Shown piece by piece: positions 8,364-50,151 of a stretch of DNA of 64,000 nt. The stretch spans positions 30,692,001 to 30,756,000 of the forward strand of contig CM097885.1 in assembly GCA_044892525.1 (NCBI GenBank). The letters are read 5' to 3'. The notes beneath the pieces were generated by a model that was not told the origin of the DNA, made no database searches, and saw nothing but the letters and a program-made list of their open reading frames with translations. A program made the translations under genes and the position numbers. Source of the DNA: Schmidtea polychroa. Lineage: Eukaryota. The number at the start of each line of letters is the position of its first letter. Within the stretch, counting starts at the first letter, position 1.

Positions 8364-9390
<1,027 letters not shown>

Positions 9391-16933: not shown

Positions 16934-16940
16934 CTACTTA

Positions 16941-17928
16941 AGTAGTGTGTTTATATCCCTAACCAAAACAGCCCTCCCAAAAAAACATACCTCCATTACG
17001 CTTAAACCATTAGAAAAACAACCTAAAACTTATACTTTTATAGTATTTTAACCCTATATTTTGAAAACAACCACCCTTAATGGCTCTAACTGTTTTAATC
17101 TTTAAAGCCTCAAACTCAAAAGCTTCAAACTAAAAACATAAAGAGAATAGAAAAGAAAATGGTATTATGAAAAAGTTAGAGGGCTATTTTGGTTAGGGAT
17201 ATTAACACACTACTTGAGGATGTCAACTAGCAAGTTGCTATTTGACTAATTTATAATTTTATAAATCTTAATCTTGATGTCTTGAAGAATAAAAAATTTT
17301 ATGAAATAGTAAAACTGCTCTGAGAGGACAGTGGTATTTTTATTTTTTTTTTCACTGTCCTCTCAACAGTTTTTTTGATCCGGATCATTTTTTTATTCAA
17401 CCTCTTTCGTTTATCGAATCTCTTCCAATATACAAGCTGGCCAGACTCATACATCAGAATCAATTCGATAATAGCAGCACGCCTTATTATTCACTTCTCG
17501 CTCGAATACGATTTCATCGGCGTTTTAAGCGTGCTGCTCGAAAGTACAAATGAATTCGAAAGCGAATCCGAAAGAGGTCCGAAAACAACCAAGAAATAAA
17601 TGTGCACATTATGGGATCGATCCGGGGGTGTTCGAAAGACTGGTGGCGATAATTACCGGTTCGCCACCACACCCGTTTCAATAATTTTTTTTCATATTTA
17701 TGTTTAAAAAATAAAATAAATAAAAAAAAATAAAATATATAAAATAAAATAAAAATAAATAAAATAAAATATAAATCTAAGATACCTACACCATTTTCAA
17801 TATTATTTTCAAATTTTTAATATTATTTTATGTTGAAAAAAAACTAACCGTAGTTAGGATTTGAACCGCTATCTATTTGAACCACTGTGCCAGTCTAGCC
17901 CACTGCGCTATCTAGGTTTCAGATTTTT
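16941..17928 (+). repeat. left TIR of inner Polinton (~990 bp)
   Basis: Near-identical inverse of 30402-31389. Confidence 0.95.
17836..17917 (-). ncRNA. tRNA-like putative Pol III RNA gene (left TIR copy)
   Basis: Inverse copy of 30413-30494 with A box, B box and T-run. Confidence 0.55.
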
Positions 17929-17956
17929 TGTCATTTTTTAAATTTTTATTATAAAA

Positions 17957-19249
17957 ATGAATAATATAAATCTTAAAATTCAAGAAAAAAATAAATTAAA
18001 TCTTGATTATAATAAAGAATTTACTCATGAAATCAAGAAAAATGATGTACTTAAAATCTCGCCAACTTCAGGATCTATTGCAAACTTAAATCGTAGGGGT
18101 GATATAGTTTTTCAATCTCTTCAAACATCAAACCCTATAGATATTTGTAATGCTAAATTATATTATAAAATTGAATTAGAAATTGAAGCAAACAAAGATA
18201 TAACCCTAGAAAATAATTTCTTTCCAAATTTATTCAACAACATGAGATTAAAACTAGGATCATCAGAAATTGAAACTGTTTTATATCCAGGAGTATATTC
18301 TACAATGTTAAATTTTATTTTAACTGGTTGTGATTATAAAAATGAATATGGAGAATTATCAGGTTGGATTCCTGATGTTAATAAAGGTGATTTAGATAAA
18401 GATGGTTTAGATATAAATTATGGTTATTATAAAAGAGCTGAACTTTATAAATCTAAAAAATTTGAAGGTTATTTTGAATTAAAACACCTATTTGGATTCC
18501 TTCAAAACTATAACCGTATATTTCATAATGTTTTTATAGAATTAACCTGTAATAGAGTAGAAGGTGATAAAAGATTGTTCTATGGAGCTGCAGATACAAA
18601 AGCTAAATTAAAATTATCAACACTTGAATTGCATATACCTGAATGGACACTAAACCCACATTCTGAGATTAAACTCCTTGAAAGATTAAATTCCAACAAG
18701 TCTATAAATGTAAATTATTTAAATAGAATCTGTAGTGAATTTAGTATGACAGAGGGTTCAACATATTCTATAAAGGTGGCAAATTTAGCATACCGACCAA
18801 GATATATCTTGATTGGATTCAAAGAAACAGATCCATCATTTCAAAAAAATAACAATCTATTTATTCAAAAGATTGGAGATGATAATTTAAAAACAATCCA
18901 AATTCAATTAAATAGTTCTTATTATCCAATAAATAGAATGGAATTTAATATTGAAAATAATGAAAACATATTCTCATATCTAAATTATATTGAAACATGT
19001 TATGATTTCAAAGTTGAACCGCAATTAAGTTTAGAAGATTTCAAAAATTTATATTCTATATTTTGTATAAATGTTTCAGACCAAGATGATCGCCTAGCCA
19101 TAAATAATGTTGATGTTACACTTCATATAACAAAGGATTCTAATTTTAAAGCTAAAGTATATACATTAATATTAGAAGAAAAGAAAATAGAAATGAAATT
19201 ATATGGTGGAAAGATTTCAATTATTGAAAATGTTAGGGGAGATTCTTAA
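17957..19249 (+). CDS. major capsid protein (double jelly-roll) of inner Polinton
   Basis: 430 aa; NNFFPNLFNNMRLKLG..EIE, RPRYILIGF, LNSSYYP and YSIFCINVS segments typical of Polinton MCP. Confidence 0.8.
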   Translation: MNNINLKIQEKNKLNLDYNKEFTHEIKKNDVLKISPTSGSIANLNRRGDIVFQSLQTSNPIDICNAKLYYKIELEIEANKDITLENNFFPNLFNNMRLKLGSSEIETVLYPGVYSTMLNFILTGCDYKNEYGELSGWIPDVNKGDLDKDGLDINYGYYKRAELYKSKKFEGYFELKHLFGFLQNYNRIFHNVFIELTCNRVEGDKRLFYGAADTKAKLKLSTLELHIPEWTLNPHSEIKLLERLNSNKSINVNYLNRICSEFSMTEGSTYSIKVANLAYRPRYILIGFKETDPSFQKNNNLFIQKIGDDNLKTIQIQLNSSYYPINRMEFNIENNENIFSYLNYIETCYDFKVEPQLSLEDFKNLYSIFCINVSDQDDRLAINNVDVTLHITKDSNFKAKVYTLILEEKKIEMKLYGGKISIIENVRGDS

Positions 19250-19266
19250 TATTTTAACATTTTAAA

Positions 19267-20649
19267 ATGTCTTTAAATAAACCCTATTGGAGATGTGAAA
19301 CATGTAATTGTCAAGTTACAAGACATCATAAAGCAAGTCATTTAAAAACTAAAAAACATATAGGAGTCGATATTACACGAACAGGAGGTGACATGCAATC
19401 TTCAAAAACAACATCTTCAATATTAAAACCTTTTACTACAGAAAAATATCCAGGTGAAAGACATTTATTTAAACACAACTATACTGGACCAGGAACAAGA
19501 TTAGATATTAGATTAGATGAAAATAATAATCCTAAACAAGGAGAAGAACCAATAAATAGAATTGATCAAGCAGCTTTAAAACATGATATTGCTTACAACT
19601 CAGAAGATCTTAGAGATAGACATGTTGCAGATGTGAATTTAATACATGATTTAAATAGTATCCAAAATCCATCAACCCAAGAAAAGATTCAAAGTGCTCT
19701 AGTTAAATTAGCAATGAAAGGTAAAATCTTTTTTGGAGCCGGACTTCCTAGAATAGCAAAAGATGTTGCTAATAAAAAGATCCTCGAACAAGCAGACATT
19801 GAAAGATCCCTCGAGAATATATCCAAGACTAGTTTACAAACCCAAACAGAATCAGAAATAAAATATGCCAACGAATTGCACCATGAATTTAGAAAAAATA
19901 AAAAATATTTAAAAGTTCAAGTACATGAAAAAGATCAAACATGGTCTGCAGATTTAGTCTTTATGCCAACCAAATCATCAGACCCTGAAAAATATAAAAT
20001 AATTTTAACAGTAATAGATTTATATACAAGATTTGCTTTTGCAAGATGTTTAGAAAATAAAACAGGATATTCTATTACAGAAGCATTTGAAAATATATTT
20101 GAACAATATCAAAGAATTCCAAAATATTTATGGTGTGATAAAGGAACAGAATTTTATAACAAAGTTTTTACAAAGTTTTTAAATGAAAATGATATTAAAT
20201 TATATTCAACAGAAAACGAAGGAAAAGCAGTTGTGGTTGAAAGATTAAATAGAACATTAAAAAATAAAATGTGGAAATATTTTACTGCTATTGGAAAACA
20301 AAAATGGAACAATGAATTGTTACAAAAGATTGTAAATGAATATAATAATGATGTACATAGTTCTATAAAATCAACACCTTTAAATGCTTCCTTGAATCCT
20401 TTGGAACTCATGAATCCTGTTGAAAATGATGTTATTGAAAAACCAAAGTTTAAAATTGGTGAACGAGTAAGAATATTTAAATACAAAAATAAATTTGAAA
20501 AAGGATTCACAGCAAAATGGACAAATGAAATTTTTATTATAAATAAAATACATTATACAACTCCAATAACATATAGCATCATTGATTTAAATAATGAAAA
20601 AATATTAGGTAGATTTTATAATAATGAGTTACAGAAAACAGATTTTTAA
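19267..20649 (+). CDS. zinc finger - parvovirus-type PLA2 - retroviral-like integrase fusion
   Basis: CETC...H...H finger; NYTGPGT...RIDQAALKHDIAY PLA2 motif; WSADL, CDKGTEF and VERLNRTLK DDE motifs. Confidence 0.9.
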   Translation: MSLNKPYWRCETCNCQVTRHHKASHLKTKKHIGVDITRTGGDMQSSKTTSSILKPFTTEKYPGERHLFKHNYTGPGTRLDIRLDENNNPKQGEEPINRIDQAALKHDIAYNSEDLRDRHVADVNLIHDLNSIQNPSTQEKIQSALVKLAMKGKIFFGAGLPRIAKDVANKKILEQADIERSLENISKTSLQTQTESEIKYANELHHEFRKNKKYLKVQVHEKDQTWSADLVFMPTKSSDPEKYKIILTVIDLYTRFAFARCLENKTGYSITEAFENIFEQYQRIPKYLWCDKGTEFYNKVFTKFLNENDIKLYSTENEGKAVVVERLNRTLKNKMWKYFTAIGKQKWNNELLQKIVNEYNNDVHSSIKSTPLNASLNPLELMNPVENDVIEKPKFKIGERVRIFKYKNKFEKGFTAKWTNEIFIINKIHYTTPITYSIIDLNNEKILGRFYNNELQKTDF

Positions 20650-20660
20650 GTCGACAAGCC

Positions 20661-21455
20661 CTAAAACAAACTTTTCCATATTTCAGCTTCTTCTCTATCC
20701 AAATAAATATAATTATATTTTTCTCTCCAATGATTATCAACAAACATATCAAACATATTCTTATCAGGTTCAACATTTGAAAATAAATCATTATAAATCA
20801 TATTCTTATCACGGCGATCTAATTTAAAAAATATAAAACAATTGGAATTATTTTTTATTGAATTTTTATCTAAAGCATAATATGTTTGAGATATATAAAT
20901 AACATTACAATTATTATGTCTTCCTCTTGTAAAGTAACTCTTTTGGATCTCTTGATTTTTCATGTTGACAACATCATCAAATATAACTAGATTCTTTTTA
21001 TCTTTAGGAAGTAAATCACAATGTAAAACATCTTCAGGTTTATTAGAGAATAAAACTTGAATTGCTTGCCCCTCCCTCTCTTCACAAATATAATCATTTT
21101 TATTACTAATATCTGATTCTAAAATCATTTCCTTATACCAATCAACCATATCACAAGGTTGAAAAACTTCTTCAGGACATCTATGTTGATTTTTAAAAAT
21201 ATCAATTATTGCTTTTTTAGTTAATTTATTTTCAAATCCACATTTCAAAAGTTGTAATTCTGGTTGATTTATGGTTGTAGAGTAAAAGATTAAATTATTA
21301 TAATCTAAAAAATCATCTTCAAGCAACATCCTCAAAAGAAGTACATTCTTTCCACATCCAGAAGAACCAACAATTAATAATCTAAAATTATCAGGAAATA
21401 CTTTATTATTAAATTTACTCTTATGTCTATTTAAAATTGGTTTCCAAATATCCAT
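20661..21455 (-). CDS. A32/FtsK-like packaging ATPase of inner Polinton
   Basis: Walker A GSSGCGKN, Walker B LVIFDD, TRGRHNN...ISQTY. Confidence 0.92.
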   Translation of the reverse strand: MDIWKPILNRHKSKFNNKVFPDNFRLLIVGSSGCGKNVLLLRMLLEDDFLDYNNLIFYSTTINQPELQLLKCGFENKLTKKAIIDIFKNQHRCPEEVFQPCDMVDWYKEMILESDISNKNDYICEEREGQAIQVLFSNKPEDVLHCDLLPKDKKNLVIFDDVVNMKNQEIQKSYFTRGRHNNCNVIYISQTYYALDKNSIKNNSNCFIFFKLDRRDKNMIYNDLFSNVEPDKNMFDMFVDNHWREKYNYIYLDREEAEIWKSLF

Positions 21456-21470
21456 TTTATTTATTATAAA

Positions 21471-22013
21471 ATGACAACTGAAGAATCTTTGCAAGAATTA
21501 ATAAATTCAAATAAAAATAAATCAGTAGTAATTGATGGTAAAAAATATTTTATTGGAAAACATGTAAAAGAACAAGTTAAAGAACGTATTAGAGAAGGTG
21601 GCATTCTTCCATTAGCTGCTTTAATACCTGCAATCATTGCTGCTTTATCAGGTGCTGCTGGAATAGCTGGAGGAATTGCAACTACAGTTCAAAAAGCTAA
21701 AGAATCTCAAAAGACAGACCTTGAAAAAGAAAAACTACAAACTGAAATCGAGAAAATGAAGGTAGGGCAAGCTAAAGGAAAATGTCTTAATCCATATCAG
21801 GGCAAAGGTCTCTATCTTGATCCATATAAAGGCAGAGGTTTAAATGATTTTTTAAAAAATCAAATTTCAACATCTGAATCTTTATCATCAAAAGATAAAG
21901 ATGATTTTAAAAAAATATGTAAATCTTTAAAGAATGGGTGTATTTGTAAAATTGGAGGAACTCCACAGAATAGTGGTAAAGGATTGTATTTAAAACCTTG
22001 GAAGGAACAATGA
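21471..22013 (+). CDS. virion core/membrane-active precursor-like protein
   Basis: REGG|ILPLAALIPAIIAAL hydrophobic helix and repeated GKGLYL motifs resembling adenain sites. Confidence 0.6.
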   Translation: MTTEESLQELINSNKNKSVVIDGKKYFIGKHVKEQVKERIREGGILPLAALIPAIIAALSGAAGIAGGIATTVQKAKESQKTDLEKEKLQTEIEKMKVGQAKGKCLNPYQGKGLYLDPYKGRGLNDFLKNQISTSESLSSKDKDDFKKICKSLKNGCICKIGGTPQNSGKGLYLKPWKEQ

Positions 22014-22035
22014 TACCATTTTTAATACCATTAAA

Positions 22036-22875
22036 ATGGTATATGAAGAAAGATTAGCACTTTTAAAAAAATTACAATCAGAACAAAACAAGTATAATAA
22101 AAAAGATACAACTCAACAAACTGAATCTATAATATTAAATGAGGTAATCCAACAACAACAAGGACCAACAATTAAAGCTATAGAGAGACTTAAAACTATA
22201 GAAGCTCCTCTAACCCCCGAACATAAAGCTATAGAAGCCCCTAGAAAGGAATTACTAAGATTAGTAGGAAAAAAACGTAGAAATAATATTGATTTAGAAG
22301 AAGATGAATTTCTTTCAAGATTAACACCTCATAAGACTCCAATTAATTTTAAAATTAATACATCACTAGCTCCATCAATTATACCTACTATAGGTTATGA
22401 TCCTAGAGGTTTTCAAACAATAACAATTAATAATCAAAAATTTTATATATATTTAAATTCAGAAAATAATCCATCGATTATTTCAACAAATACTTTTATG
22501 AATAGAGAGCGTGTTGACATTGAACTTTCAGATGATTTTCATGGATTAATTTCTGGATATATTCCAGATGGTGTCAAGAATGAAGAAATTGATAAATATT
22601 TAAACTTAATAAAATTAATAAATGGTAGCCCTAAAGCAAAACATATTCAAGATTTAAAGAAATATAAAGATAGAGATAAAACAGGCCCTCAAATTCAAAT
22701 CATTGAAGGAGAAGGCCTCAACCCTATAAATCTTTTTATTGAATTAAGAAAACTATTAGCAGCTAAAAAAGCAGGACATAATAATTTAGATTCTGATATT
22801 TTAAAGATTTCTAAAGATTTGTTAAAACAAGGAATAATTTCAAAAGATAAATTTAATAAGTATACGAAGTTATAA
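22036..22875 (+). CDS. conserved Polinton hypothetical protein
   Basis: 279-aa ORF with GEGL and LLAAKKAGHNN C-terminal motif. Confidence 0.6.
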   Translation: MVYEERLALLKKLQSEQNKYNKKDTTQQTESIILNEVIQQQQGPTIKAIERLKTIEAPLTPEHKAIEAPRKELLRLVGKKRRNNIDLEEDEFLSRLTPHKTPINFKINTSLAPSIIPTIGYDPRGFQTITINNQKFYIYLNSENNPSIISTNTFMNRERVDIELSDDFHGLISGYIPDGVKNEEIDKYLNLIKLINGSPKAKHIQDLKKYKDRDKTGPQIQIIEGEGLNPINLFIELRKLLAAKKAGHNNLDSDILKISKDLLKQGIISKDKFNKYTKL

Positions 22876-22897
22876 ATACGAAGTTATAAAATACAAA

Positions 22898-23338
22898 ATG
22901 GCTTCAATATTAGATTTTTTAAAAACATTTGGAATAAATGCAAAAACAAATTTTGATTTAAAAGATTATGCAGATTATTTAAATTTAAAAATTAAAATAT
23001 TAATGAACGATGAATTATATAAAATTGGAGGTACTCCCCTTAGACGAAGTCCCCAGAATATAATAATCAATTATCAAAATTCAAATGAGAAAGGATCTCA
23101 TTGGGTTTGTATATATAATAAATCTATATACTTTGATTCTTTTGGGATTAAACCCACTAAAGAAGTTGAAGATTATCTCTCGGACTACACTTTTAATTCT
23201 TTACAAGTTCAACCTAATAATACTAAAATATGTGGTATTTTAAGCTTATATGTTTTGTATAGATTGAATAAATCTAAAGGAGAAGGTTTCACTTCCTTAA
23301 TCCAAGAAATTTATAATGATTTAAAATCTTTACTATGA
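22898..23338 (+). CDS. adenain-like cysteine protease of inner Polinton
   Basis: GSHWVC, YFDSFG and Q...CG motifs. Confidence 0.9.
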   Translation: MASILDFLKTFGINAKTNFDLKDYADYLNLKIKILMNDELYKIGGTPLRRSPQNIIINYQNSNEKGSHWVCIYNKSIYFDSFGIKPTKEVEDYLSDYTFNSLQVQPNNTKICGILSLYVLYRLNKSKGEGFTSLIQEIYNDLKSLL

Positions 23339-24167
23339 AAATGGAGCTTCGCAACCTTCCGGAAGATTATTTAAAAAAAATAGCAAACATAATGTCACAT
23401 AAATATTCAAGAAGTTTATTAATAAATTCAAAAGAATCAGATTTTACTATAAATTTTGAAGATTCAATAAATTTAGATCAAGATTTAAATTATGAATTAG
23501 GATTCTTGTGGTTTAGCTGTTTTAATACTATTTTTAATATAAATAATAATAATAATAAATTTATTATATTTAAGAGTGATAATAGAAACCCCCTTTTGTT
23601 TCATTTATTCTCCCTAGTATATTGGAAAATAGTGAATATGAAAAGATTACTTCTAAGGAATACACCATTATAACAATCGAACCAGGATCATATGAAATAA
23701 CAGATTTAGCTAAAACAATTTTAAAAGAAACAAATGGAGAAGTAGAAATAAAAGCAGATATTCAAACTTCAAAATGTATTACAACTTTAAAAAATGTTGG
23801 ACTTGGTGTTACTACTTCTAGTTTCTTTCATAATATTTTAGGTTTTGAAGTCAAAGAATATCCACCATCAACCATTAAATCTAAAAATATTATACAATTA
23901 ACAAATACAAATTCTATAAATATAGAGTGTGATTGTATAATGGGATCATACATTAATGGTAAACATGCAAATATTTTATATTCCTTTCCTTCTAATACCG
24001 TGCGAGTTGGATATAAAATAGTTGAAAGAATGAATCCCCCAAATTATTTACCTTTATGCAGAAAAAATATAATGGATATTAGTTTTAGAATTGTTGATGA
24101 AAATGGGGAATTAATTAATTTTAATGGAGAAAATATTTCAATGTGTTTACATTTGAAACAAGTCTAG
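23335..24167 (+). CDS. minor capsid (penton-like) protein, split into two frames near 23575-23620
   Basis: DFTINFEDSINL, IEPGSYEI, INIECDCI.GSYING and ISFRIVDENGELINFNGE motifs. Confidence 0.75.
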
Positions 24168-24190
24168 ATTTTATTTTTATTACTATAAAA

Positions 24191-25174
24191 ATGAATTATG
24201 CTAGTTATAATAAGTTTGGATTATATAATGATGGATTAAAAGATGAAGATGTTATATCTCTTACAGAAAAGAGATATGTCAATGAAAGAGGTGATTCAAT
24301 GAAAGGAGATTTAATTTTAAATGGACACAAGATAAAAGATTTATCTTTTCCAACTGATGATTCTGATGCAGTTAATAAAAAATATACTGATTTAACAACA
24401 ACAAGAATTGAAAGTTTATTAGCAACAAAAATTGATTCAATAGAATCAAAGCTTAATAATATCGAACAACGATTTAATGATAAATTTGACAAGTTACAAA
24501 GTCTGTTAACTGAACAAGTTGTAAAGTTAAATACTAGCATATTAAATTCTAAAGATAAACAAATTATGAATACTAAATTTAATACAATATATAATATAAT
24601 AAATGAGATGATTACATCATTTAATAAAAGAATTTCAAATTTAGAGTCTCATGGAACACACATTAACACCACACATAGTATTAGAAAAAGAGCTGCTGAA
24701 TTAGAACAAAATAAAACATTATTACCCCATACATATAAACATTTTATAGAACCAAGTTTAATAACAACAAACAGTAAAGAATGGGGTGTTTTTATGGTTG
24801 TAAAGATTATTGATCCTTATTTCTTTTTGTTTGATGATAATAATGAAAGAATGAAATGGTTTGTGAAATGTGATTATAATAGTAAGCTTGAAAAGGGTGA
24901 TGTTATAATGACTAGTTATGATTTACCACACGGAGATTGGTATGTTAATACTCATTCACATGGACTACATAAAGTTAAAAGTAAGAATATTATTTTTAAA
25001 AGCACACTTGTACAATATATAGATTTAATATTTTATGAAAAAAAGTTTGATGTTGATGAAGTTCGTAAAGCATTGAGAGAATTGTATAAAGATATCCTCT
25101 CAACAAGAGTTTCTTTTGATATCCGAGTATTGGTGCCAGATGGTGCTCAGAAGAATAAAGTCTTATTTTTTTAA
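24191..25174 (+). CDS. putative fibre/spike-like protein
   Basis: MKGDLILNGHKIKDL..P....DAVNKKY tail-fibre-like repeat followed by a coiled coil. Confidence 0.5.
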   Translation: MNYASYNKFGLYNDGLKDEDVISLTEKRYVNERGDSMKGDLILNGHKIKDLSFPTDDSDAVNKKYTDLTTTRIESLLATKIDSIESKLNNIEQRFNDKFDKLQSLLTEQVVKLNTSILNSKDKQIMNTKFNTIYNIINEMITSFNKRISNLESHGTHINTTHSIRKRAAELEQNKTLLPHTYKHFIEPSLITTNSKEWGVFMVVKIIDPYFFLFDDNNERMKWFVKCDYNSKLEKGDVIMTSYDLPHGDWYVNTHSHGLHKVKSKNIIFKSTLVQYIDLIFYEKKFDVDEVRKALRELYKDILSTRVSFDIRVLVPDGAQKNKVLFF

Positions 25175-25182
25175 TTATTAAA

Positions 25183-25812
25183 ATGGAAGAAGTAAGAGAA
25201 GAAAAAATTTACCCAGAATTGAGATCATCAGGATATTATTCTTCCAAGGCCTCGGCTCCCACAGAACTTGAAATTATGAGAGTAAAAGAATTTAAATCAG
25301 AAACCTTACATTTACAAGATTTATTAAAGCATTATAAAAAAATTAAAAATAGATGGAATAAAGGGAATACAGTTTTAAAAGTTATAGGTTATTCTTTAGG
25401 ATTTGCATCTGCAATATTAACAGTTATTTTACCCATAACTTTACCAGTTGTTACTCTTTATTTTTTTTTGCACCTGTAATACTTGGAAGTATTTCTGTAG
25501 CTGATGGTTTCTTAACTGAAATAGTTTCATTATCTTATACTTCTAAAAAGAAAAGTTTATATCGTGAAGTTTGTTTATCAATAGAATTAGGAATCTCTAA
25601 ATTATTTTTATTTCAATTAAAAGCTTTAGAAGATGGAATCTTAACTGATGATGAAATAATGAAATCAAATCAAATAATACAAGATATTAAAAATGAGGTT
25701 ATAAGATTAAAAAGTGCTAATGTTATAAGTAATGAATATTCTAAAAAAATTAAACGAGAAAAATGGTTAAAGAATTCTTACTTATAAAATGGATGAATTT
25801 TTAAAAAAGTAG
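25183..25812 (+). pseudogene. Polinton transmembrane protein, frameshifted near 25465
   Basis: IYPEL...HYKKIKNRW then hydrophobic helices; reading continues in another frame after a T-run. Confidence 0.5.
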
Positions 25813-25881
25813 ATCAAGTTGCTATAGTTGCTTAAATTAATTGTCGACATTTTATTATTAAAAAATTAAATATCGTTGGTT

Positions 25882-28800
25882 TCAGTTATGGTTGAAAGCC
25901 AACCTATGAATCATTAATTTATGATCTTTAAATTCTTTATCACTTAGACCTTTTATATATTCAGGATCAGTATTAAAATATTTAAGTTCTAAACATATAG
26001 GATTAAAAACTTGAGAATATAAAGGTTTCTCGATTTGTCTCTCGGGATAAATAATTTCAACATTATAAATATCAAGATCAGTAATCTTTGTATCATATAA
26101 CTTATTCAAACTAGCAAGATTTTTTATTATCGGTATTAAATTATTTCCTATAGGAAGAGTTGTCTTTAAATCACTTAGTATGAATCTTTTATCATCATAA
26201 TTTGATAATGATACTTTTTGGGATTCTATCAAGTAAATATCATGGTTTTCACTTTTAAGTTGATGTATTTCATCAATTTTATCTTTATGACCTGGGTTTA
26301 ATGTATCTATATAATCTTGATGAGAAAGATTCTTTGCAACTGATCTCTGTATTCCTTTACATCTGTTATCCTTTACAGGTTTTTCCTCTTGTCCCTCAGG
26401 TCCTTTAGGGAATATAGGATATTTATATGAAATAATTTCCTCTTTTTCTGGGGTTTAAATATAATTTCTCGAGTTTCAAATTTAGGATTTGTAAATGTTT
26501 CGTATGAATATTGTTTAGCACGAATAAATATTCCATTTTCTATAGGAGTAAAAGGTTTTTCATCTTTAAATGAAAATAGTTCTCCAGATGAATTTATTAA
26601 ATTTGAAAGTATAGGATTTTCAGTCATATCTCTTTGTAAATCATGAGTTCTTATTGTTAAAAACATTGAATCTGTATCCATTGCATGCATTGATATATTA
26701 GAACCATATATAGGTTGTAAGATGTTATAATATGTTTCATACATTTGTAATTTTGAAAGTTCTAAAATTGTAAACCCTATAAATATTGGTTTATTGTATG
26801 TTTTCTCAAAATTCTTTAGTTCTATTGCAGTAAGATTTTCAGAAAATACTTGTGCGTTTTTAAATGTAGGCTTTCCTAGCATACGATTATAACGCTTAAT
26901 GTCTTTGGTAGTATTTGTTAGGAGTTCAATATGAATATATTTATCAACATTCTCCATTGTCTTCCCAAAGACTGAATTATTTAAAAGTTTATAATTATTG
27001 TCTTTAAAAAGGTTACCTTCTCTTTTTGCAATGTTTCGACACCTAATGTTCTCCTCGATAAAAGCCTTCATGAATGGTCTCTGTTTAAATCTTATGACAC
27101 TATGAACTTTTTTTAATATCATACCTCGTGAAAGATAAAACTGTAAAAGTCTATAGTGACAAAGATAAAACCTTCGATCTTTTTGATCACAAAGAAGTTT
27201 CATTGTTGGAGGTTTATCTTGTGAGATTTGCCATTCAGAAAGTTCGTTGATATCAATCTTTCTTCTTACAGGAGCTAAAGGGAAATATCTTGTTCCTGAT
27301 TTTATATCATCTGGATATAATAAGTCACATTCTACAAAGTAACCTATTGGAGAATCTTTAGGAGTTGAAAGTATTTCTTTCATAAGGTCTTTTAAGGATT
27401 CTTCTGAGGAATCTTCAGAGTATATTTCATGAAAGTCACTCATTGGTAAATATTGAGTCATAATTCCTGAATATAAAGCTGTTGCATCTATATAAAGTAT
27501 AAATATAGGATTTTTCATTGTTTCTAATAATTCTTTTAATTCCTCATTGTTAATTTTCATATATGGATCATCAGGGTGTTTAGAGAGTCTTCGGCTAGTA
27601 GTTATTGCATTTCTAGCTTTTATTTCTCTATTCCCCATTACTGAAGAGACTCCTCCTCTAATGTTTGTTTTAATTTGGTTAAACATATCGAGGTTAGTTA
27701 AAAGATCTATAATTTTATCACCTTCTTCTATATTTGAAGTCCAAATGGTATATAATAAAGTATCCCAAGCTAAAGAGGGTGCTGTTATATAATTGTAAGG
27801 TTTAAGAACAAAAGATTTTGTAAATTCTTCAAAGCAATCTGCTAGAATATAAACATCCAAGGATAAATACATACTTGTATATTCTCCTAAAGTTTTACAC
27901 TTGAATAATTCCCACATTTTATTTGCTCGAGAATATTCTTGATCTGTAATATGATATTTTTGAAGTTGTGAAGAGAAATCTTCTTGGCTAGGAAGACTTG
28001 TTTCATTATATTTTTCAAACGAGTCAACATAGTCATAAGGATATATTCCTTTTGCTAAGCATGTAGGATATTCTTCTGGAGGAATATTATTTTTTTCCAA
28101 GAATTCTCGAGTGATTTTAAAATTTTCTGGTTTCATTGTTTTTGCTACTGCATCTAGAGACATTTGGAGAAAGTTTAACGAGTCTATAAATTTTAATTTT
28201 CCATATTCAACTGATTTATATTTTTCCTTTGTAAGTCCTATAACTTTGAAAGAGTTTTTAGCATTTTCTGCTAAATGTTTAATAAATAGATGTATGTCAT
28301 AACCAAAACGATTATGAAATATAACAGGTACAAATTTAGGAGTATGGCAATTAAGATTGCAATTTTTATGAGCTGCTCCTCGATAATTATTTTCCTTTTT
28401 TAAATGATCATGATCGGGGACTTTTATGTTTGAAGATTGTCTTTCATGAAACATTCTTTGTTCTTCTTCTTCAATAGTTTCATTATTTGGAGGTTCCTCA
28501 TGGAGTTGATCCTCAAATGGTTGTTTACACATCCACCAATTTGAAGAATTTTCATATTCTTCCCATTGTTCGGTTGAAAGGTTTATTTCATATTTTGTTT
28601 TTAATACTTTAAATATTTCATGTTCTAGATCATTTATACTTTTAGTAAAATGATTTAAAACATCTTCTGAAGTTCCTTGAAATGTATATTCTCTAGATTC
28701 TATGAGTTCAGGATAATTACTTTTAAATAATAGTTTATAAGCAGAAGGTAATTGTTTAGTTTTTTTAACACTATTAGGTTTATTTCTTTTTCTTAGAAAG

Positions 28801-30332
28801 GCTTTCATCCTCTCTGGTTTCATCTTCTCTCCTGAGGAGTTCCATGAATCCATGAGTTTATTTTTTTCTATTATTTTTAAATATTGGTTAACCAAATCTT
28901 GTTTACGATTTATAGATTCAAAGTCTCCATAAACCACTCCTACTGTTTGTAGTAAATTTGAAAAGTTTTTAAAATTCATCTTGGGATCTGTAGGCATGTC
29001 AATTAAAGCTGGTTCATCTTTTTCACAAAATCTTGTATGTTTAATCATAGAGTTTTTAGTTGTTGAATAATGAAGACATCTTTTACATGTTCCTCCTCCA
29101 CTAGTTGGATTCTCTGGTGATGTAAAAGCTTGAAAGTTTTTTATTAAAACATAATGTTGATTATTTTTTTGTTCCAAGATTAAAAGATATATTTCTCTAG
29201 GGTTTTCGTTATCTTGTACTTCGTTATCCTTGGTTCCACTATCAGAAATGTAAATTGGAATAATTTCTCTACTTTTAATATTTTCCCCTTTAACCCGTTC
29301 ATAAATATTAATTTTAAGATTATTTAAACTTTTAAATTTTGGAATGTCTTCTAGTTTCATTGGATGTTTGAATTCTTTGGGAAATATTAATTCATTTTCA
29401 TATTGTTTGTATTTTGAAACTCTTTGAGGGTTTGATTCTTGAGGGTGTAAATGTGCAAGTATTGACCAGATGAAACATTTGTTATCATTATTCTGTACGT
29501 TTATAACATTTTTAGATGTAAAGGGTGTAGGAATATAAGATTTAGGATTAGGTGGTAATCCTCTCCAATAATCAATCACTAAAGTTTGGAAAGAGTTGAA
29601 TACTAAGTTTGAATCTCCTAATTCATTTTCTACTTCCTCTTGTTTTGCTTCTGCTGCTTTAATTATTTCTTTGATGGTTTTATCAAATCCTTTAGTTGAA
29701 AATAAATATTTAAAGGGTATTCCAATTTCAATATCTAAAGGAGTTGTCTTTTCTTCTGCTCCTCGCCAGTATTTTGCTTTGATTATAATTTTATATTTTA
29801 TAACATTATACCTTGTCAGTTTATAATTTTTTAAAGCTTCAGTGAAAGCATTTTTAATATTTTTTTTATTTTTATTTATATATTCTCCAGGAGTTGCAGG
29901 TCCATTAATTTTTAATTGAAATTCATCTATATGATAAAAATTATCCCAGTTATATTTTTCTCTTTCAACATGATCAGGTTCTCCTTCTGAATGACATTCC
30001 TCATCGTCAGAATTTTGTTTTTTATTTTTACATTCTTTTATATGTTCTAAATAATAGAAATTTAGTTTTGTTGAAAAGTTACAATGAGGACAATATATTT
30101 CTCTATTTTTCCCAATACAATTTTCAAAATGTTTATTATATCCAGAATGTAGAAATCTTCCTTTACATTTAGGACAAAGTTTTGAATTTGTATCATTAAG
30201 ATTATTTTCTTTTAATAAATGAGCTTTCGATTTTAAGTCAGAAATTAATCCAGTTTTATTTTTAAAAACTTTATTACAAATATTACAATTCATTTTTAGA
30301 AAAAATTTTTTTATTGGATACCCTGTTTTCAT
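25882..30332 (-). CDS. protein-primed DNA polymerase B of inner Polinton with N-terminal zinc fingers; one frameshift near 26375-26450
   Basis: YGDFES, YIDATALYS, KLLNNSVFGK and MDTDS motifs; C-terminal CKGI...DDKR lies in a second frame. Confidence 0.95.
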
Positions 30333-30401
30333 TTTATTTTTTAAATTTATATATTATTCATTTTCATAATGTGACAGTCTAATTTTTAGAATTTTATAAA
30401 T

Positions 30402-31389
30402 AAAAATCTGAAACCTAGATAGCGCAGTGGGCTAGACTGGCACAGTGGTTCAAATAGATAGCGGTTCAAATCCTAACTACGGTTAGTTTTTTTTCAACAT
30501 AAAATAATATTAAAAATTTGAAAATAATATTGAAAATGGTGTGGGTATCTTAGATGTATATTTTATTTTATTTATTTTTATTTTATTTTATATATTTTAT
30601 TTTTTTTTATTTATTTTATTTTTTAAACATAAATATGAAAAAAAAATTATTGAAACGGGTGTGGTGGCGAACCGGTAATTATCGCCACCAGTCTTTCGAA
30701 CACCCCCGGATCGATCCCATAATGTGCACATTTATTTCTTGGTTGTTTTCGGACCTCTTTCGGATTCGCTTTCGAATTCATTTGTACTTTCGAGCAGCAC
30801 GCTTAAAACGCCGATGAAATCGTATTCGAGCGAGAAGCGAATAATAAGGCGTGCTGCTATTATCGAATTGATTCTGATGTATGAGTCTGGCCAGCTTGTA
30901 TATTGGAAGAGATTCGATAAACGAAAGAGGTTGAATAAAAAAATGATCCGGATCAAAAAAACTGTTGAGAGGACAGTGAAAAAAAAAATAAAAATACCAC
31001 TGTCCTCTCAGAGCAGTTTTACTATTTCATAAAATTTTTTATTCTTCAAGACATCAAGATTAAGATTTATAAAATTATAAATTAGTCAAATAGCAACTTG
31101 CTAGTTGACATCCTCAAGTAGTGTGTTTATATCCCTAACCAAAATAGCCCTCTAACTTTTTCATAATACCATTTTCTTTTCTATTCTCTTTATGTTTTTA
31201 GTTTGAAGCTTTTGAGTTTGAGGCTTTAAAGATTAAAACAGTTAGAGCCATTAAGGGTGGTTGTTTTCAAAATATAGGGTTAAAATACTATAAAAGTATA
31301 AGTTTTAGGTTGTTTTCTAATGGTTTAAGCGTAATGGAGGTATGTTTTGTTGGGAGGGCTGTTTTGGTTAGGGATATAAACACACTACT
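30402..31389 (-). repeat. right TIR of inner Polinton
   Basis: Inverse of 16941-17928. Confidence 0.95.
30413..30494 (+). ncRNA. tRNA-like putative Pol III RNA gene (right TIR copy)
   Basis: A box TAGCGCAGTGGG 30420-30431, B box GGTTCAAATCC 30463-30473, T8 terminator 30487-30494; ACCTAG/CTAcGGT acceptor-like stem. Confidence 0.55.
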
Positions 31390-31457
31390 TACTTAAATAA
31401 ATCCAGAGTATAAAAAACAACTTACTCCATGACAACGTTTTGTGTTTCAATATACAT

Positions 31458-36559: not shown

Positions 36560-36997
36560 ATGTTAGCAAATATAAATTATCGAGGAAATTTTGATGTATC
36601 AAATATGAGGTTCCCACCAGGGAAACCCCAGCAAATTATCGATAGAAGCGGGAAATATCCGATAATATTTTTCAAGACTGGTAAATGTCGAATCATGGGA
36701 TGTAAGAAATCTTTGGATATTAATAAATTACAATATCGAATAAATAATATTATAATCCAATCAATTACCGTTACTATGGATATGGGACATAGTATCAATC
36801 TATATAACATGTCGAAAAAATGTGATTGTATGTTTGAATCGGAATTGTTTCCGGCACTAAGACTATTAAAATATAACCCTATATGTGTCAACGTGTTTGC
36901 TAGTGGAAAGGTTGTCATGTTGGGGTTGAGAAATTTGGAGTATAGAGAATTTGTTGACAATGTTCGAAATGAGATAATTTCATTGGTCGATTTCTAA
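36560..36997 (+). CDS. TATA-binding-protein-like protein
   Basis: Two TBP-like repeats: IFFKTGKCRIMG and FESELFPALRL...VNVFASGKVVMLG. Confidence 0.8.
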   Translation: MLANINYRGNFDVSNMRFPPGKPQQIIDRSGKYPIIFFKTGKCRIMGCKKSLDINKLQYRINNIIIQSITVTMDMGHSINLYNMSKKCDCMFESELFPALRLLKYNPICVNVFASGKVVMLGLRNLEYREFVDNVRNEIISLVDF

Positions 36998-40111: not shown

Positions 40112-40972
<861 letters not shown>

Positions 40973-43686: not shown

Positions 43687-44355
43687 ATGATCCATTCTGA
43701 AAATTTATGGGTGACCGACCAGCACGGTTACACATTAAGTGAAAATAAAGTTTGTGAAATTGAAGGTGAGTGCTCAATATGTCTTGAAGAATTGGATTAT
43801 TCTTCGAATATTGTCAGACCTGAGTGCTGTGATAAACATTATTATCACCATCATTGTATGATACAATTGATTTCTTCCGATTTCTTTGATGTCAAATGTC
43901 CGTTGGACAGGTGTCCGTTTAGAAGCTTTTTATATTACAACATTCTCGACAAACATCAAATCATTCGAACTGAAGTCTTTTGGTATAAGTCTGACCTTCA
44001 AATCATTTTACTATTCAGTCATTTCCTTTTTGAGAAATATATCGGTACAAATGTCCACTCTTATGAAACCGACCTCGATTCGACTACCATCAATATTGTT
44101 TGTCACAAAAATTTATTCCAATCACTCCACATAGATGCTGAAAAGAATGAGTTGATTAAATTACCTATGGCGTCCTTAAAAGTTTCAAAAGATAGTTATT
44201 GGAATCTGTCTCTCAAGAAAAAATATCATAGAAATATTATCGGATCAAATTATCAAATGAATATGACAGGAAATATGCGCCATTTGACCATGTCATTTTA
44301 CACAAAAGGCTATGAAAACCTCATTGAACTATTATTATCTGACATTGGGTTGTAA
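43687..44355 (+). CDS. intronless RING-H2 finger protein (copy 2)
   Basis: Near-identical to 7235-7903. Confidence 0.75.
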   Translation: MIHSENLWVTDQHGYTLSENKVCEIEGECSICLEELDYSSNIVRPECCDKHYYHHHCMIQLISSDFFDVKCPLDRCPFRSFLYYNILDKHQIIRTEVFWYKSDLQIILLFSHFLFEKYIGTNVHSYETDLDSTTINIVCHKNLFQSLHIDAEKNELIKLPMASLKVSKDSYWNLSLKKKYHRNIIGSNYQMNMTGNMRHLTMSFYTKGYENLIELLLSDIGL

Positions 44356-45112: not shown

Positions 45113-48100
45113 TCATATCCCCCTTCTTAAGAAATTTTTAAGTTTTTCCACATTTCTTTCGATCCTTTTTCCATCTTCATTTCTTAAGATGTATCGTCTG
45201 TCATGCATTTTCTCTATCACTTTGTACGGACCTTCATACCTGTCCTGGGCTTTGTGGCGTGTTTCTACTTTTACTAATACTTCTTCTCCTACATTGAATT
45301 TTCTCCTTGTTTGTTCTTCTAGTTCTTCCTTTATCGGTATTTCTTTGGACCCGTACCATTTTTCCCTGCTAATCTTTTTACCAAAAACTATCTCTGCCGG
45401 GCTTTTCCCTGTCGTTTTTTGTTTGGTTGCATTTAAAGTGAATTCGACTTCTGGTAATATCTCTGCCCAATCCGTCTTCTTTCTATCCTGTAAAGTAGCA
45501 TTTATCAAATCCCGTATTGTCCTGAATTGTCTTTCTATCTGACCGTTTGTTTGGTGATGGTATGGACTCGAAAAACATAATTTAATATCTAGCATCTTTG
45601 TGAATTCTCTCATCATTCCTGATTCAAACGCCTTTCCGCAATCAACTCTTATCTCCTTTGGGCATCCAAATCTTAAAATCCACTTTTCTAAAATCGTTTT
45701 CTTTATTGTTTCTTCGTCTTGTTTTGTTATCGCTGTCAAGACTTGATACTTACTATACTGATCTATTATGCCCAATATATACTTCTTACGTCCTTTTGTT
45801 TCTGTCAACGGTCCACATATATCCACGAATATAATTTCGAACATTTCCTTCGAATCTTGTCTTTTTACTGGTTCTTTCGTTGTTATTGTTAAAGCCTTGG
45901 TTTTTTGACAAATCTCACAACTTCGAACAATCTCCTGAATCTTACTCCACAGGTGTTTTCCAACATATCTATCTTTCATATAATCGGCTATCTTCTCGAC
46001 TCCAGCATGACACAATAGTCTATGTATTTCCTTTATTGTTTCTTGTAACTCATTTTCAGGTATCATCGTTTTCTTTCGTGCTTCTTCCTTCTTCTCTGAT
46101 CGAGTCTAGTAATCTGGTTTTTATCTTTCCTTTCTTAGCTTCTTCGTGGGACATTTGACATTGAACACACGTGTCACATTTAGTTCTCGAAACCATGTCT
46201 GCATTTTGGTGATTAATACCCTTTCTGTATTCTACTCTTATATCTAAACTGCTCAAATAATTGATCCATGTTTGGAATTGTGAAGTAATCGGCTTCTTGG
46301 TTGTCATCATAAACGTGATTGCCTTGTGGTCTGTCCTGAGCGTGAATCTTCTTCCGTAGAGATAGTGCTTAAAATGAATGCAAAAATAATATACCGCCAA
46401 TAGTTCCTTTCTTGTAATACAATATCCTTTCTCGTGGCTCGTCATCGAGTGTGATCCATACGCAATTACTCTTTCCTTTCCATCTTTATCTCTTTGTGAA
46501 AGTACTGCTCCAATGGTATCGAAACTAGCGTCGGTATCTAAAATGAACTCCTTTTTCAGATCCGGAAAACATAAGATTGGCGCCGTCGTGAGTGCTAATT
46601 TCAATCCCTCAAACACGCTATTCGTTCCTTCACTCCATTCTAATTTTTTGTTACTTGGTCCGCTACATAATTGTTCTAACATCCTTGCCTTCTTTGCATA
46701 ATCACTGATGAATCTTCTATAATAATTGCAAATACCTAAAAAGCTTCGGAGTTTCTTTACGCAATTAGGCTTCCCAAAGTTCTGTATGGCCTGAATTTTA
46801 GATGGATCTGTCTGTACTCCTTCCTTGCTGATTATGTGTCCTAAGAATCTGATTTCTTCCTTTATTATTTGGCATTTTTCTGGATTAATCCTTAGGCCTG
46901 CTTCCTCAATCGCCTTTAACACTTCTCCGAGCATTGTATAGTGTTTATCTTTACTGCTTGAATAAATCAAGATGTCGTCCAAATACACCATTGCTCCCTT
47001 TATTTTGCCTAATACTTTTGTCATCATTTCTTGGAACGTACCTGGTGCTGCTGCAATTCCAAACGGCATTCTGTTGAAACAATATTGTCCGTTCTTTGTT
47101 GAGAAAGCTGTTTTCTCCCGTGATTCTTCTTCTAGTTCCACTTGGTAATATGCATTATCTAGATCGATTGAACTGAAAAAGACGGATTCTCCTAACAAAT
47201 CCAACATCTCGTCTATGTTTGGCATTGGAAATGCCTGCCTCTCTGTTACCGCGTTCAGCTGTCTAAAGTCCAAGCATAGTCTAATATCCTTTTTCTCCTT
47301 TTTCCATACACATATTAGCGGTGTATTCCATGGAGAGTTACATTTCCGTATAATTCCATTTTCGTACAAATTTTGTATTGCTTCTTCAATCTTTGATTCC
47401 AAATTTAGTGGTTGGCGATATGGTTTTATGTTTATCGGCTCACCTCTTGTAACTATCTTGTGTTTTACCAAATGTGTGCGACCCACATCCAATTTATCTG
47501 CCATAAACACGTTTCCACTGTTTGTTATAATTTCCTTTAATTTGCTATCTTCATTGATCTTTAACTGTTCCAACTCTCGTATCAATCGTTCTTCATCCTT
47601 TATTTTTCTGCCAAATTTTGCTTCAATGTTACAAATATAGTTCTTGTCTTTTTCACTAGCCTCGATATCTTTAATTTTTAACAGTCTAAATCCAAATGTT
47701 TCTTGTAATTCGATTCCTCCAATCACGTCTGGTGTCCCTTTCTCCGCCACAACGAATATAACTTCCTTCGAAACATTTCCAATGGTTACTTGCACCTTCG
47801 TTTTTCCTATTGTCTCGATCGTACTCTCGTTTGCGCATCGTAACTTATCGTCACTTTTCGTCAATTGTTGTCCTCGTAGCTTGTTGAAACAGTTCACACT
47901 CATTACATTGATTCTTGCCACAGTGTCTAATAAACAGTCGAAATTTTCCCCATTCATCCTTACTGTTATATTAGGCCTTCATTGCATTCTGTTATACAAA
48001 ATTTCAACAACCTGCTCCGTTTCAATGGTTCCAATTCTTTCCACTTCCTCTTCAAACATTTCTCTCTTTAGGAACCTGTATATTTTCTCGCTTACCCTTC

Positions 48101-48150
48101 CAACATTCTCCCACTTTTCTGCCCCTTGAGGATATCCCATCAAATTTTCT
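45113..48150 (-). pseudogene. Gypsy pol (PR-RT-RH-IN), frameshifted near 46060
   Basis: LLDTVA, YLDDILI, DTDAS, HHCC region and GQIERQF motifs. Confidence 0.92.
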
Positions 48151-48151
48151 G

Positions 48152-49198: not shown

Positions 49199-50151
49199 AT
49201 TAGGAGGTTCATCCTGTAAAACATTAAAATCAGTTTTTGTTTCCATAAATTTTATTTCAATAAATATCAAAATCAAATTATATCTTCTTTAAACTTCCTT
49301 ATTTAAACAAATTTTCTACGAAGATATTTTTAATTAAAATATCTTCTTATTTTGTTTTTTTAAAAATCAATCTAAACTTTAATTTTTAAAATTTTCAATT
49401 TAAAAATTTCTTCATCATAAAACTTCCTCATAGTGCTATTACTTCAGTTTAATATAAATTGTGATACAAGTTTAGATAGAGGACAACAAAAAATATGAAT
49501 AGTTTTTTAGATTTTAAATCTGGTACTGAGAAATGTGTGTACTAAAAGAAAACAAAAATTTGTTTTGACAACACTATTGTTCACTCATTGCGTGGTAACA
49601 AGGAACAAAAATAGAGTGTTTCTTAACCTTTACGAGATACTTCTTAAAATTCAAAAGTTATTAACCATAACGTTAATTTACTTTCATTTTGGGTTTCAAT
49701 TTTATTTAATTTCACCCGTCCACAGGAATCAGCGATTCTTTTGTTGATTTAACTGCATTGGAAATAAAATTCAAAAGAGATCAAATTGCGAAACATTAGA
49801 ACAAACTGGTTCTAAGCGATCGGCCAAAATCCGGGTATTCACACAAGTGTCCTATCTAATTCTATCAGCGCTGAGGTAACCACTAAGTCCCAGCGTGTGA
49901 CATCTTAACCATCTAAAGACGGTTTGAACAACCGATTTCTATCTTAGATCAAGTGGCATTTTTGGTACACTTACTTTGTAAAACTCATTATATAACTTAA
50001 ATTATTTATTCATAAACACTCTTTGGACTTATTCATTTAAAAATATATTTACATCTATACATTTATATTTATTATAAGAACTTTTTTTCCAATTTCACCA
50101 CTGATTTTTTTTCCATTTTATTTTATTTATTTAAAAATTATAAAATATATA

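What the first reader, a model, noticed from the sequence alone, without database searches (positions are those of the whole stretch)
30413..30494. tRNA-like Pol III gene inside each inner-Polinton TIR (VA-RNA analogue?)
Seen: A box TAGCGCAGTGGG at tRNA-like position +8, consensus B box GGTTCAAATCC, a second GGTTCAAAT upstream, an ACCTAG/CTAcGGT closing stem and an immediate T8 terminator; mirrored at 17836-17917 at the inner border of each TIR. The cloverleaf is not canonical. Established: adenoviruses use A/B-box Pol III VA RNAs, and TFIIIC sites act as chromatin barriers. Inference: a ~75-nt viral small RNA or an insulator bracketing the coding region.
Basis: partly seen in the sequence, partly recalled or inferred. 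Interest (0 to 1): 0.82.

Follow-up and report, generated by a model that had tools for sequence, protein, structure and literature searches.

The report
tRNA-relic promoter in Polinton ends
A virus-like jumping gene with thousands of copies in this animal genome carries, at the inner edge of both of its ends, a worn-down tRNA relic whose RNA-polymerase-III promoter boxes are conserved while its fold is not, so it likely serves as a landing pad for host transcription machinery rather than as an adenovirus-style decoy RNA.

Summary
An identical 74-nt unit (A box, two B boxes, T8) lies at the inner edge of both ~990-bp TIRs of a 14.4-kb Polinton. It is not a SINE: 2,875 units against 2,729 TIR anchors genome-wide, and all 40 units traced sit in Polinton ends. 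Across copies the boxes behave like second codon positions (0 of 21 columns with a shared box-breaking change), the rest like synonymous sites (16 of 44 vs 9 of 31), and the RNA folds no better than shuffles. So the promoter is selected, not a VA-like structure. Many copies add two sister units 91-96% identical to the host rDNA intergenic spacer; one is a tRNA-Cys relic. Sister lineages with 86-96% identical capsids lack the unit, so it is accessory. A separate, strand-specific RNA fold with a pre-miRNA-like hairpin lies 160-440 bp downstream and is the better small-RNA candidate. No RNA evidence was obtained. Best reading: a TFIIIC/Pol III landing pad that likely keeps the element's inner ends open (0.5). 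The scan noted this system before on other copies in this genome.

The parts
30413..30494 (+). U1: tRNA-relic type-2 Pol III unit (74 nt + T8), pointing outward, right TIR
17836..17917 (-). U1 mirror copy, left TIR, identical
30420..30430 (+). A box; the only shared variant is A/G at the purine position, which the consensus allows
30438..30448 (+). second A-box match inside the unit; not conserved (three polymorphic columns)
30447..30455 (+). upstream B-box duplicate (16-nt tandem duplication; 2 boxes in 79, 3 in 3, 1 in 1 of 83 units)
30463..30472 (+). B box at tRNA spacing; 0 of 10 columns with a shared variant
30487..30494 (+). T8 Pol III terminator-like run
30650..30935 (+). conserved, strand-specific RNA-like fold downstream of U1 (z -5.6); mirrored at about 17396-17681 on the minus strand
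30860..30920 (+). pre-miRNA-like hairpin, 25 pairs, 100% of cells paired in 44 copies; z -6.8 on +, -1.2 on -
30402..31389 (.). right TIR (~990 bp) of the inner Polinton
16941..17928 (.). left TIR of the inner Polinton
17957..19249 (+). double-jelly-roll major capsid ORF; ATG 40 bp from the left U1, head to head
26373..30332 (-). protein-primed-type DNA polymerase B ORF; ATG 81 bp from the right U1, head to head
16941..31389 (.). inner Polinton, 14.4 kb (capsid, integrase with PLA2-like domain, A32 ATPase, protein-X-like, PolB), TSD TACTTA at 16935-16940 and 31390-31395

Best explanation
The unit is a tRNA-derived type-2 RNA polymerase III promoter, reduced to its A and B boxes and terminator and kept by selection in both TIRs of one high-copy Polinton lineage, where it likely recruits host TFIIIC, TFIIIB and Pol III and would keep the inner edge of each TIR open next to the divergent capsid and polymerase genes. 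Shown: sequence, copy number, TIR-only location, selection on the boxes, no conserved fold, box and unit duplications, sister units shared with the host rDNA spacer. Inferred: factor binding, a ~75-nt by-product RNA, and a barrier or nucleosome-clearing effect, by analogy with tRNA-gene and TFIIIC barriers in yeasts (PMC4131230, passages). Inferred history: the lineage took tRNA relics from the host rDNA spacer, probably more than once; U1 is an older, more diverged member of that set.
For: In the 50 capsid-side copies: non-box 16 of 44, capsid four-fold sites 9 of 31, capsid second positions 1 of 109, A box 1 of 11, B box 0 of 10. Fold no better than shuffles. B box duplicated, a second A box present, whole unit duplicated in at least 12 of 91 ends. 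28 of 50 capsid ends and 0 of 30 polymerase ends add units U3 and U2; U2 passes the Rfam tRNA cut-off (32.4 vs 29 bits) and matches host tRNA-Cys over 30 nt at 83%. The U3-U2 block is 91-96% identical to the type-A rDNA spacer, where such units occur in 30 of 30 repeats examined. A unit always starts 40-110 bp from the capsid or polymerase ATG, head to head.
Against: No binding, chromatin or RNA data. Seven sister ends with 86-96% identical capsids have short ~240-bp TIRs and no unit, and the outer Polinton of the window has none, so the unit is dispensable for spread. The boxes are no more conserved than the downstream folded block (1 of 21 vs 23 of 241, p 0.70). In the planarian S. mediterranea Polintons are silenced by piRNA-guided SMEDWI-2 acting on the element itself (PMC8532177, passages), which a barrier against spreading from the flanks would not obviously stop. 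A short terminal stem survives in most haplotypes, which is also what a selected RNA would show. U1 itself is in neither rDNA spacer type examined.
Confidence: 0.5

Rival explanations
1. The TIR is a small-RNA cassette, like the gammaherpesvirus TMERs or adenovirus VA genes: Pol III makes RNAs that matter as RNAs, either the ~75-nt U1 transcript (decoy for La, tRNA-processing or piRNA factors) or the folded block downstream, which would yield a microRNA or dsRNA decoy, with U1 as its promoter or enhancer.
For: The block at 30650-30935 folds on the same strand as U1 (z -5.6 vs -2.6 on the other strand). Its 25-pair hairpin is 100% paired in 44 copies, with 10 columns varying on one side and none breaking; 6 of 8 pairs with shared variants keep pairing on + and 1 of 8 on -. 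The block is constrained (19 of 242 columns vs 9 of 31 four-fold sites). U1 length stays 73-78 nt in 80 of 83 units.
Against: U1 has no conserved fold. T8 and a T-rich 150-bp spacer separate U1 from the block, so one Pol III transcript is unlikely. The block has only weak box look-alikes and no Rfam match. Only 1 of 81 pairs shows a change on both sides, and the structure was derived from one of the copies. It could belong to a Pol II transcript.
Confidence: 0.27
2. Neutral passenger: tRNA relics came in with captured host DNA and were carried up by a successful lineage; TIR homogenisation and recombination among paralogous units keep the shared boxes alike.
For: Close sister lineages lack the unit. 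The window copy lacks U2 and U3 yet has intact ends. Some U1 alleles resemble U3 (19 of 21 nt in L219), so paralog exchange could vary non-box columns only.
Against: Box columns are as fixed as second codon positions while neighbours vary like synonymous sites. Most U1 alleles are not found in U2 or U3. Boxes and whole units were duplicated repeatedly, in one orientation.
Confidence: 0.1
3. The conserved words act in DNA for something other than Pol III: part of the shared Pol II promoter of the capsid and polymerase genes, or a site for an element-encoded protein.
For: The unit lies 40 and 81 bp from the two ATGs; GGTTCAAAT is repeated at 16-nt spacing.
Against: The conserved columns are exactly the A box, the B box and a T-run in tRNA geometry, and the sister unit is a recognisable tRNA-Cys relic.
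Confidence: 0.1
4. A dispersed tRNA-derived SINE that happens to sit in this Polinton.
For: A tRNA-like head with broken cloverleaf is typical of SINEs (established knowledge); 1,754 first-look candidates genome-wide.
Against: 30 of 30 top hits and 10 of 10 units lacking an exact TIR anchor lie in Polinton ends; unit and anchor counts match (2,875 vs 2,729); no LINE-like tail or own target-site duplication seen.
Confidence: 0.02

Closest known systems
Cassandra, Helenus and Ajax TRIMs (TRIMp3; PMC10886601, passages)
   Same: A small-RNA-gene relic (5S or tRNA) in both terminal repeats of a mobile element, with Pol III promoter and terminator conserved; Helenus copies inflate tRNA-gene predictions.
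   Different: Those are non-autonomous LTR retroelements; in Cassandra Pol III makes the transposition RNA. Here the host element is an autonomous, capsid-coding DNA Polinton, the unit points outward and ends after 74 nt, so it cannot transcribe the element.
Murine gammaherpesvirus 68 TMERs (PMC8223928, passages)
   Same: Viral tRNA-like type-2 Pol III units, clustered, with repeated A boxes; a pre-miRNA-like hairpin lies downstream on the same strand here.
   Different: U1 has lost the cloverleaf; a T8 and 150 bp of T-rich spacer part it from the hairpin; no RNA shown.
Adenovirus VA RNA genes (type-2 promoter per PMC8223928; structure and PKR role recalled)
   Same: Internal A and B boxes and a T-run in a linear dsDNA, protein-primed, jelly-roll virus relative.
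   Different: VA RNAs are ~160 nt, strongly folded and internal to the genome; U1 is 74 nt, unfolded, duplicated in the TIRs and traceable to host tRNA relics.
tRNA genes of polinton-like viruses, virophages and MELD viruses (PMC12220804, PMC8502044, passages)
   Same: tRNA-derived sequence carried by Polinton relatives.
   Different: Those were found as intact tRNAs by ARAGORN or Rfam and read as codon compensation; U1 is invisible to both and cannot decode.
Pokey transposon with rDNA-IGS-derived repeats (PMC10946416, passages)
   Same: A DNA mobile element carrying captured rDNA intergenic spacer.
   Different: Here the captured piece carries tRNA-relic Pol III units.
tRNA-gene and TFIIIC chromatin barriers of yeasts (PMC4131230, passages)
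   Same: A/B-box units as DNA elements whose job would be factor binding, not the RNA.
   Different: Known as host boundaries, not as parts of a mobile element; barrier activity untested here.

Membership tests
Type-2 Pol III gene | A box and B box at tRNA spacing | tested here: met
Type-2 Pol III gene | oligo-T terminator shortly after the B box | tested here: met
   T8 at 30487
Type-2 Pol III gene | boxes under purifying selection | tested here: met
Type-2 Pol III gene | bound by TFIIIC and transcribed by Pol III | not testable with these tools
   no ChIP data; no reads were laid
Functional tRNA gene | cloverleaf with anticodon arm and T stem | tested here: not met
Adenovirus VA RNA | stable, conserved fold of about 160 nt (recalled) | tested here: not met
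   74 nt, z +0.8; 1 of 44 haplotypes below z -2; no Rfam match
Adenovirus VA RNA | abundant RNA that blocks host dsRNA or RNAi defence (recalled) | not testable with these tools
   no RNA or binding data
TMER-type tRNA-miRNA gene | tRNA-like promoter joined to a pre-miRNA hairpin in one transcript | tested here: inconclusive
   hairpin on the same strand but beyond T8 and a T-rich spacer
tRNA-derived SINE | dispersed copies independent of other elements | tested here: not met
   40 of 40 traced places in Polinton ends; counts
TRIMp3 (Cassandra, Helenus, Ajax) | non-autonomous LTR retroelement with PBS and PPT | tested here: not met
   inverted repeats, AGTAGT ends, 6-bp TSD, PolB, integrase and capsid ORFs
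TFIIIC/tDNA chromatin barrier | blocks spread of silent chromatin in an assay | not testable with these tools
   none
Polinton/Maverick (the host element) | PolB, rve integrase, A32 ATPase, jelly-roll capsid, long TIRs, 6-bp TSD | tested here: met

The most novel reading that the evidence does not exclude
An animal Polinton has built a Pol III cassette into its TIRs from tRNA relics taken out of the host rDNA spacer, and uses it both to hold its ends open against piRNA silencing and to make its own structured small RNA or microRNA: the first virus-encoded small-RNA system in a Polinton, a convergent counterpart of adenovirus VA genes, and with some 5,000 dispersed units a major share of the TFIIIC sites of its host genome.
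Probability: 0.2. Interest if true: 0.85.

Novelty: new variant of a known kind. Interest (0 to 1): 0.6.

Why it matters
Polintons are read as the relatives of adenoviruses and other dsDNA viruses, but their non-coding parts are almost unstudied. A selected Pol III promoter in both TIRs would be a cis-acting device that standard tRNA and Rfam scans miss, and it marks the lineage that holds about 2,700 TIR ends in this genome while close sisters go without, which gives a natural comparison. It also shows tRNA relics inside a host 45S rDNA spacer and their transfer to a virus-like element. Thousands of dispersed A/B-box sites could compete with host tRNA arrays for TFIIIC and shape chromatin. 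Each point can be tested with ChIP and small-RNA data.

Tried and rejected
RNA evidence: the look-up of sequencing runs gave 'no RNA holder listed'; no reads were laid, so expression is open. Relatives outside this genome: capsid single-query scans of viral and metagenome contigs gave no locus; an alignment query gave 19 metagenome loci (38 kb, mostly short contigs without ends) with no A..B pair in 19 of 19 and no tRNA in 6 of 6 scanned, which is too little end sequence to count; the U1 pattern found nothing in viral contigs. Exact protein look-ups 0 of 6; 41 unnamed capsid homologues. Parent isotype of U1: not assignable among the three host tRNAs compared (scores Cys 36, Lys 39, Arg 41; U2 50, U3 42.5). 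A UACG-tetraloop hairpin at the 3' end of the window copy is not conserved. My first idea that the GC-rich block is read on the minus strand, convergent with U1 (note), was dropped: the fold is better and better kept on plus. The generic A..B..T count (3,573 forward) mixes Polinton, rDNA and possibly host tRNA arrays and is not used as a copy number. Unit labels and the tallies, and the U1 multiplicities, come from loose patterns that double-count the inner A box; they are not used. The outer-TIR control (104 of 240) is inflated by indels and not relied on. Literature: ten searches showed no paper on Pol III boxes in Polinton TIRs or tRNA relics in planarian rDNA spacers; the library lacks most subscription papers and Repbase reports. 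U1, U2 and U3 words are absent from the held supplements of PMC7962491 (one file not searched). Supplements S11 and S12 of PMC12220804, which list ncRNAs in PLVs, were not read and could hold a TIR-borne case.

Full report
1. The observation. The stretch 30413-30494 and its mirror 17836-17917 are identical. They begin about 10 bp inside the inner borders of the two ~990-bp TIRs of a 14.4-kb Polinton (16941-31389, AGTAGT ends, TSD TACTTA) that codes for a jelly-roll capsid, an rve integrase with a PLA2-like domain, an A32 ATPase and PolB. Each unit points outward and starts head to head with an ORF: 40 bp from the capsid ATG, 81 bp from the PolB ATG. The A box is at +8, the B box 44 nt further on, as in tRNA genes, and T8 follows 14 nt after it. 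The strict pattern occurs twice in the window against 3.4e-5 expected. There is a second B box at 30447 and a second A-box match at 30438. ARAGORN and Rfam do not see the unit.

2. Not a SINE. The own genome (781 Mb, four large contigs) holds 2,875 exact matches to a U1 pattern and 2,729 to an unrelated TIR hairpin 250 bp away; reversed-pattern controls gave 0. All 30 top DNA hits extend into Polinton TIR sequence. Among the first 100 U1 places, the 10 I picked out as lacking an exact anchor nearby were fetched, and 10 of 10 are Polinton ends, several truncated.

3. What selection keeps. I took 91 TIR ends chosen by the anchor alone, in genome order (90 of the first 100 places). Three lack the unit near the anchor and one has lost its A box; 87 were aligned. 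Shared variants (3 or more copies) fall in 21 of 44 non-box columns, in 1 of 11 A-box columns (A/G at the purine position, allowed by the consensus) and in 0 of 10 B-box columns (p 5.5e-4). On the 50 capsid-side ends the yardsticks are: capsid four-fold sites 9 of 31, second codon positions 1 of 109, U1 non-box 16 of 44, A box 1 of 11, B box 0 of 10. So the body drifts like neutral sequence and the boxes do not. The RNA folds no better than shuffles (z +0.8 for the window copy, against -3.2 for host tRNA-Lys); over 44 haplotypes mean z is +0.1 and one is below -2. A short terminal stem persists in most haplotypes but its two sides do not covary. The B box is present twice in 79, three times in 3 and once in 1 of 83 units, and the whole unit is doubled in at least 12 of 91 ends (ten listed and two more printed). 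Against my reading: the boxes are not more conserved than the folded block downstream (p 0.70), and recombination among paralogous units could add to the contrast.

4. Sister units and their source. The window copy is a short form. In 28 of 50 capsid ends, and 0 of 30 polymerase ends, a ~750-bp block lies between capsid and U1, with two more outward units, U3 and U2, and an 89-codon ORF whose stop codon overlaps the start of U1. U2 passes the Rfam tRNA cut-off (32.4 vs 29 bits) with GCA at the anticodon position and broken acceptor and anticodon stems, and matches the host tRNA-Cys, which lies in a tandem array (982 pattern matches), over 30 nt at 83%. The U3-U2 block is 91-96% identical to the intergenic spacer of the host's main rDNA type, about 3 kb upstream of 18S and antisense to it, where units U0, U3 and one to three U2 occur in 30 of 30 repeats examined. 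The genome has 860 18S starts; a second rDNA type, about 90% identical in 28S, showed no such unit in 3 of 3 stretches. The rDNA is the likely donor: Polinton subfamilies hold spacer pieces with different end points, no TIR sequence was found in the spacer, and 80-85% diverged spacer copies run on beyond the Polinton block. The reverse direction is not excluded, since the second rDNA type lacks the units. U1 is in neither spacer, but one natural allele matches U3 at 19 of 21 nt and U1 aligns better to U2 and U3 than to the three host tRNAs tried. Two rDNA types, low GC and four large chromosomes point to a dugesiid planarian (recalled); the host tRNA-Cys body also appears in the S. mediterranea tRNA table. 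This is a taxon-level inference.

5. Accessory, not universal. Of 30 capsid loci, 18 have units and 12 do not. I read 11 of the 12: seven have intact ~240-bp TIRs close to the capsid ATG and no unit, with capsids 86-96% identical to the window's; one has a different end, one is masked, two are truncated. The outer Polinton of the window has no A..B pair. Metagenome relatives were too short to judge.

6. A better RNA candidate next door. The block 30650-30935 folds at z -5.6 on the U1 strand and -2.6 on the other. Its hairpin 30860-30920 has z -6.8 on plus and -1.2 on minus. In 44 natural copies (43 of 57 diverse haplotypes plus the window copy) the hairpin's 25 pairs are 100% paired, 10 vary on one side and none breaks; only 1 of 81 pairs in the whole structure changes on both sides. 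Of 8 pairs with shared variants, 6 keep pairing on plus and 1 on minus, where 58% of random transitions would keep it. G-U asymmetry of this kind points to RNA. It has no Rfam match, only weak box look-alikes, and T8 plus a T-rich spacer part it from U1, so how it is transcribed is open.

7. Mechanism. Shown: a box-only type-2 promoter under purifying selection, duplicated repeatedly, always at the seam between TIR and first gene. Established: A and B boxes bind TFIIIC, which places TFIIIB upstream of the start (recalled), here on the AT-rich stretch before the capsid and polymerase ATGs; tRNA genes and TFIIIC sites act as barriers in yeasts (PMC4131230, passages); planarian Polintons are piRNA targets (PMC8532177, passages). 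Inferred: the unit recruits this machinery and keeps both inner ends open; a ~75-nt RNA would be a by-product (0.5). Rivals: a small-RNA cassette (0.27), neutral passenger (0.1), non-Pol III DNA site (0.1), SINE (0.02). No RNA evidence was obtained: no RNA holder was listed and no reads were laid.

8. Comparison. It works like the Pol III relics in the LTRs of Cassandra, Helenus and Ajax (PMC10886601, passages) and like tDNA barriers, but belongs to neither. It shares promoter type with adenovirus VA genes and MHV68 TMERs (PMC8223928, passages) and fails the VA fold test. Intact tRNA genes are known in polinton-like and MELD viruses (PMC12220804, PMC8502044, passages), and rDNA-spacer capture in Pokey (PMC10946416, passages). 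Ten searches (listings only unless named above) showed no report of Pol III boxes in Polinton TIRs. PMC7962491 (passages and held supplements) reports expressed pseudo-tRNAs in S. mediterranea but holds none of three unit-specific words. The scan's earlier notes on other copies in this genome describe the same cluster, the folded block and the spacer link; I had found these before the look-up, and they are not independent support.

9. Verdict. Real, selected, lineage-specific, and not the VA analogue proposed; a new variant of a known kind. Interest 0.6; the RNA-cassette reading would be worth 0.85 if shown.

Noticed in passing
G000:C1:12240-13300 (L212) and L221-L250: The host's main 45S rDNA spacer carries a tandem set of tRNA-relic A/B-box units (U0, U3, one to three U2 at 243-bp period), antisense to the rRNA and about 3 kb upstream of 18S; the second rDNA type lacks them.
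   Followed up: partly
window 30958-31021 (and mirror): A second strong hairpin in the TIR, about 20 bp of stem around an A-rich loop, stable on both strands (z -9.9 and -6.5), with a paired change in L054; could be a DNA cruciform or a palindromic binding site.
   Followed up: partly
window 36560-36997: The outer Polinton (about 8364-40972) codes for a small TBP-family protein (Pfam PF00352, E 1.6e-13).
   Followed up: no
window 8420-9000 and 40445-40880: The outer Polinton's TIRs are packed with TGACTCA/TGAGTCA words, the AP-1 site by recall.
   Followed up: no
L054:1575-1830 (minus strand): An 89-codon charged, coiled-coil-like ORF between U2 and U1 in many family copies, transcribed outward; absent from the window.
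   Followed up: partly
window 31116-31152 and 31354-31389: The outer ~270 bp of the TIR has its own inner inverted copy of the terminus, and equals in layout the whole short TIR of sister lineages; the long TIR looks like that core plus a ~750-bp insert of unknown origin.
   Followed up: partly
L187, L189/L219, L204/L220: In some subfamilies the U3-U2 block lies outside the folded block, towards the terminus, with a longer piece of rDNA spacer: a second capture or a rearrangement.
   Followed up: partly
G000:C1:269.25 Mb, C4:76.66 Mb, C140, C333, C474, C536: Host tRNA genes (Cys, Lys, Arg) lie in long single-isotype tandem arrays with periods of about 280-425 bp.
   Followed up: no
G000:C3:144.55-144.61 Mb, C240: A second rDNA type with an 11.6-kb period and 28S about 90% identical to the main type.
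   Followed up: partly
window 45113-49246: A Ty3/gypsy-type retroelement (gag zinc knuckle, protease, RT, RNase H, integrase) inside another repeat; RING-finger ORFs at 7235-7903 and 43687-44355 lie in a 1.8-kb inverted pair.
   Followed up: no
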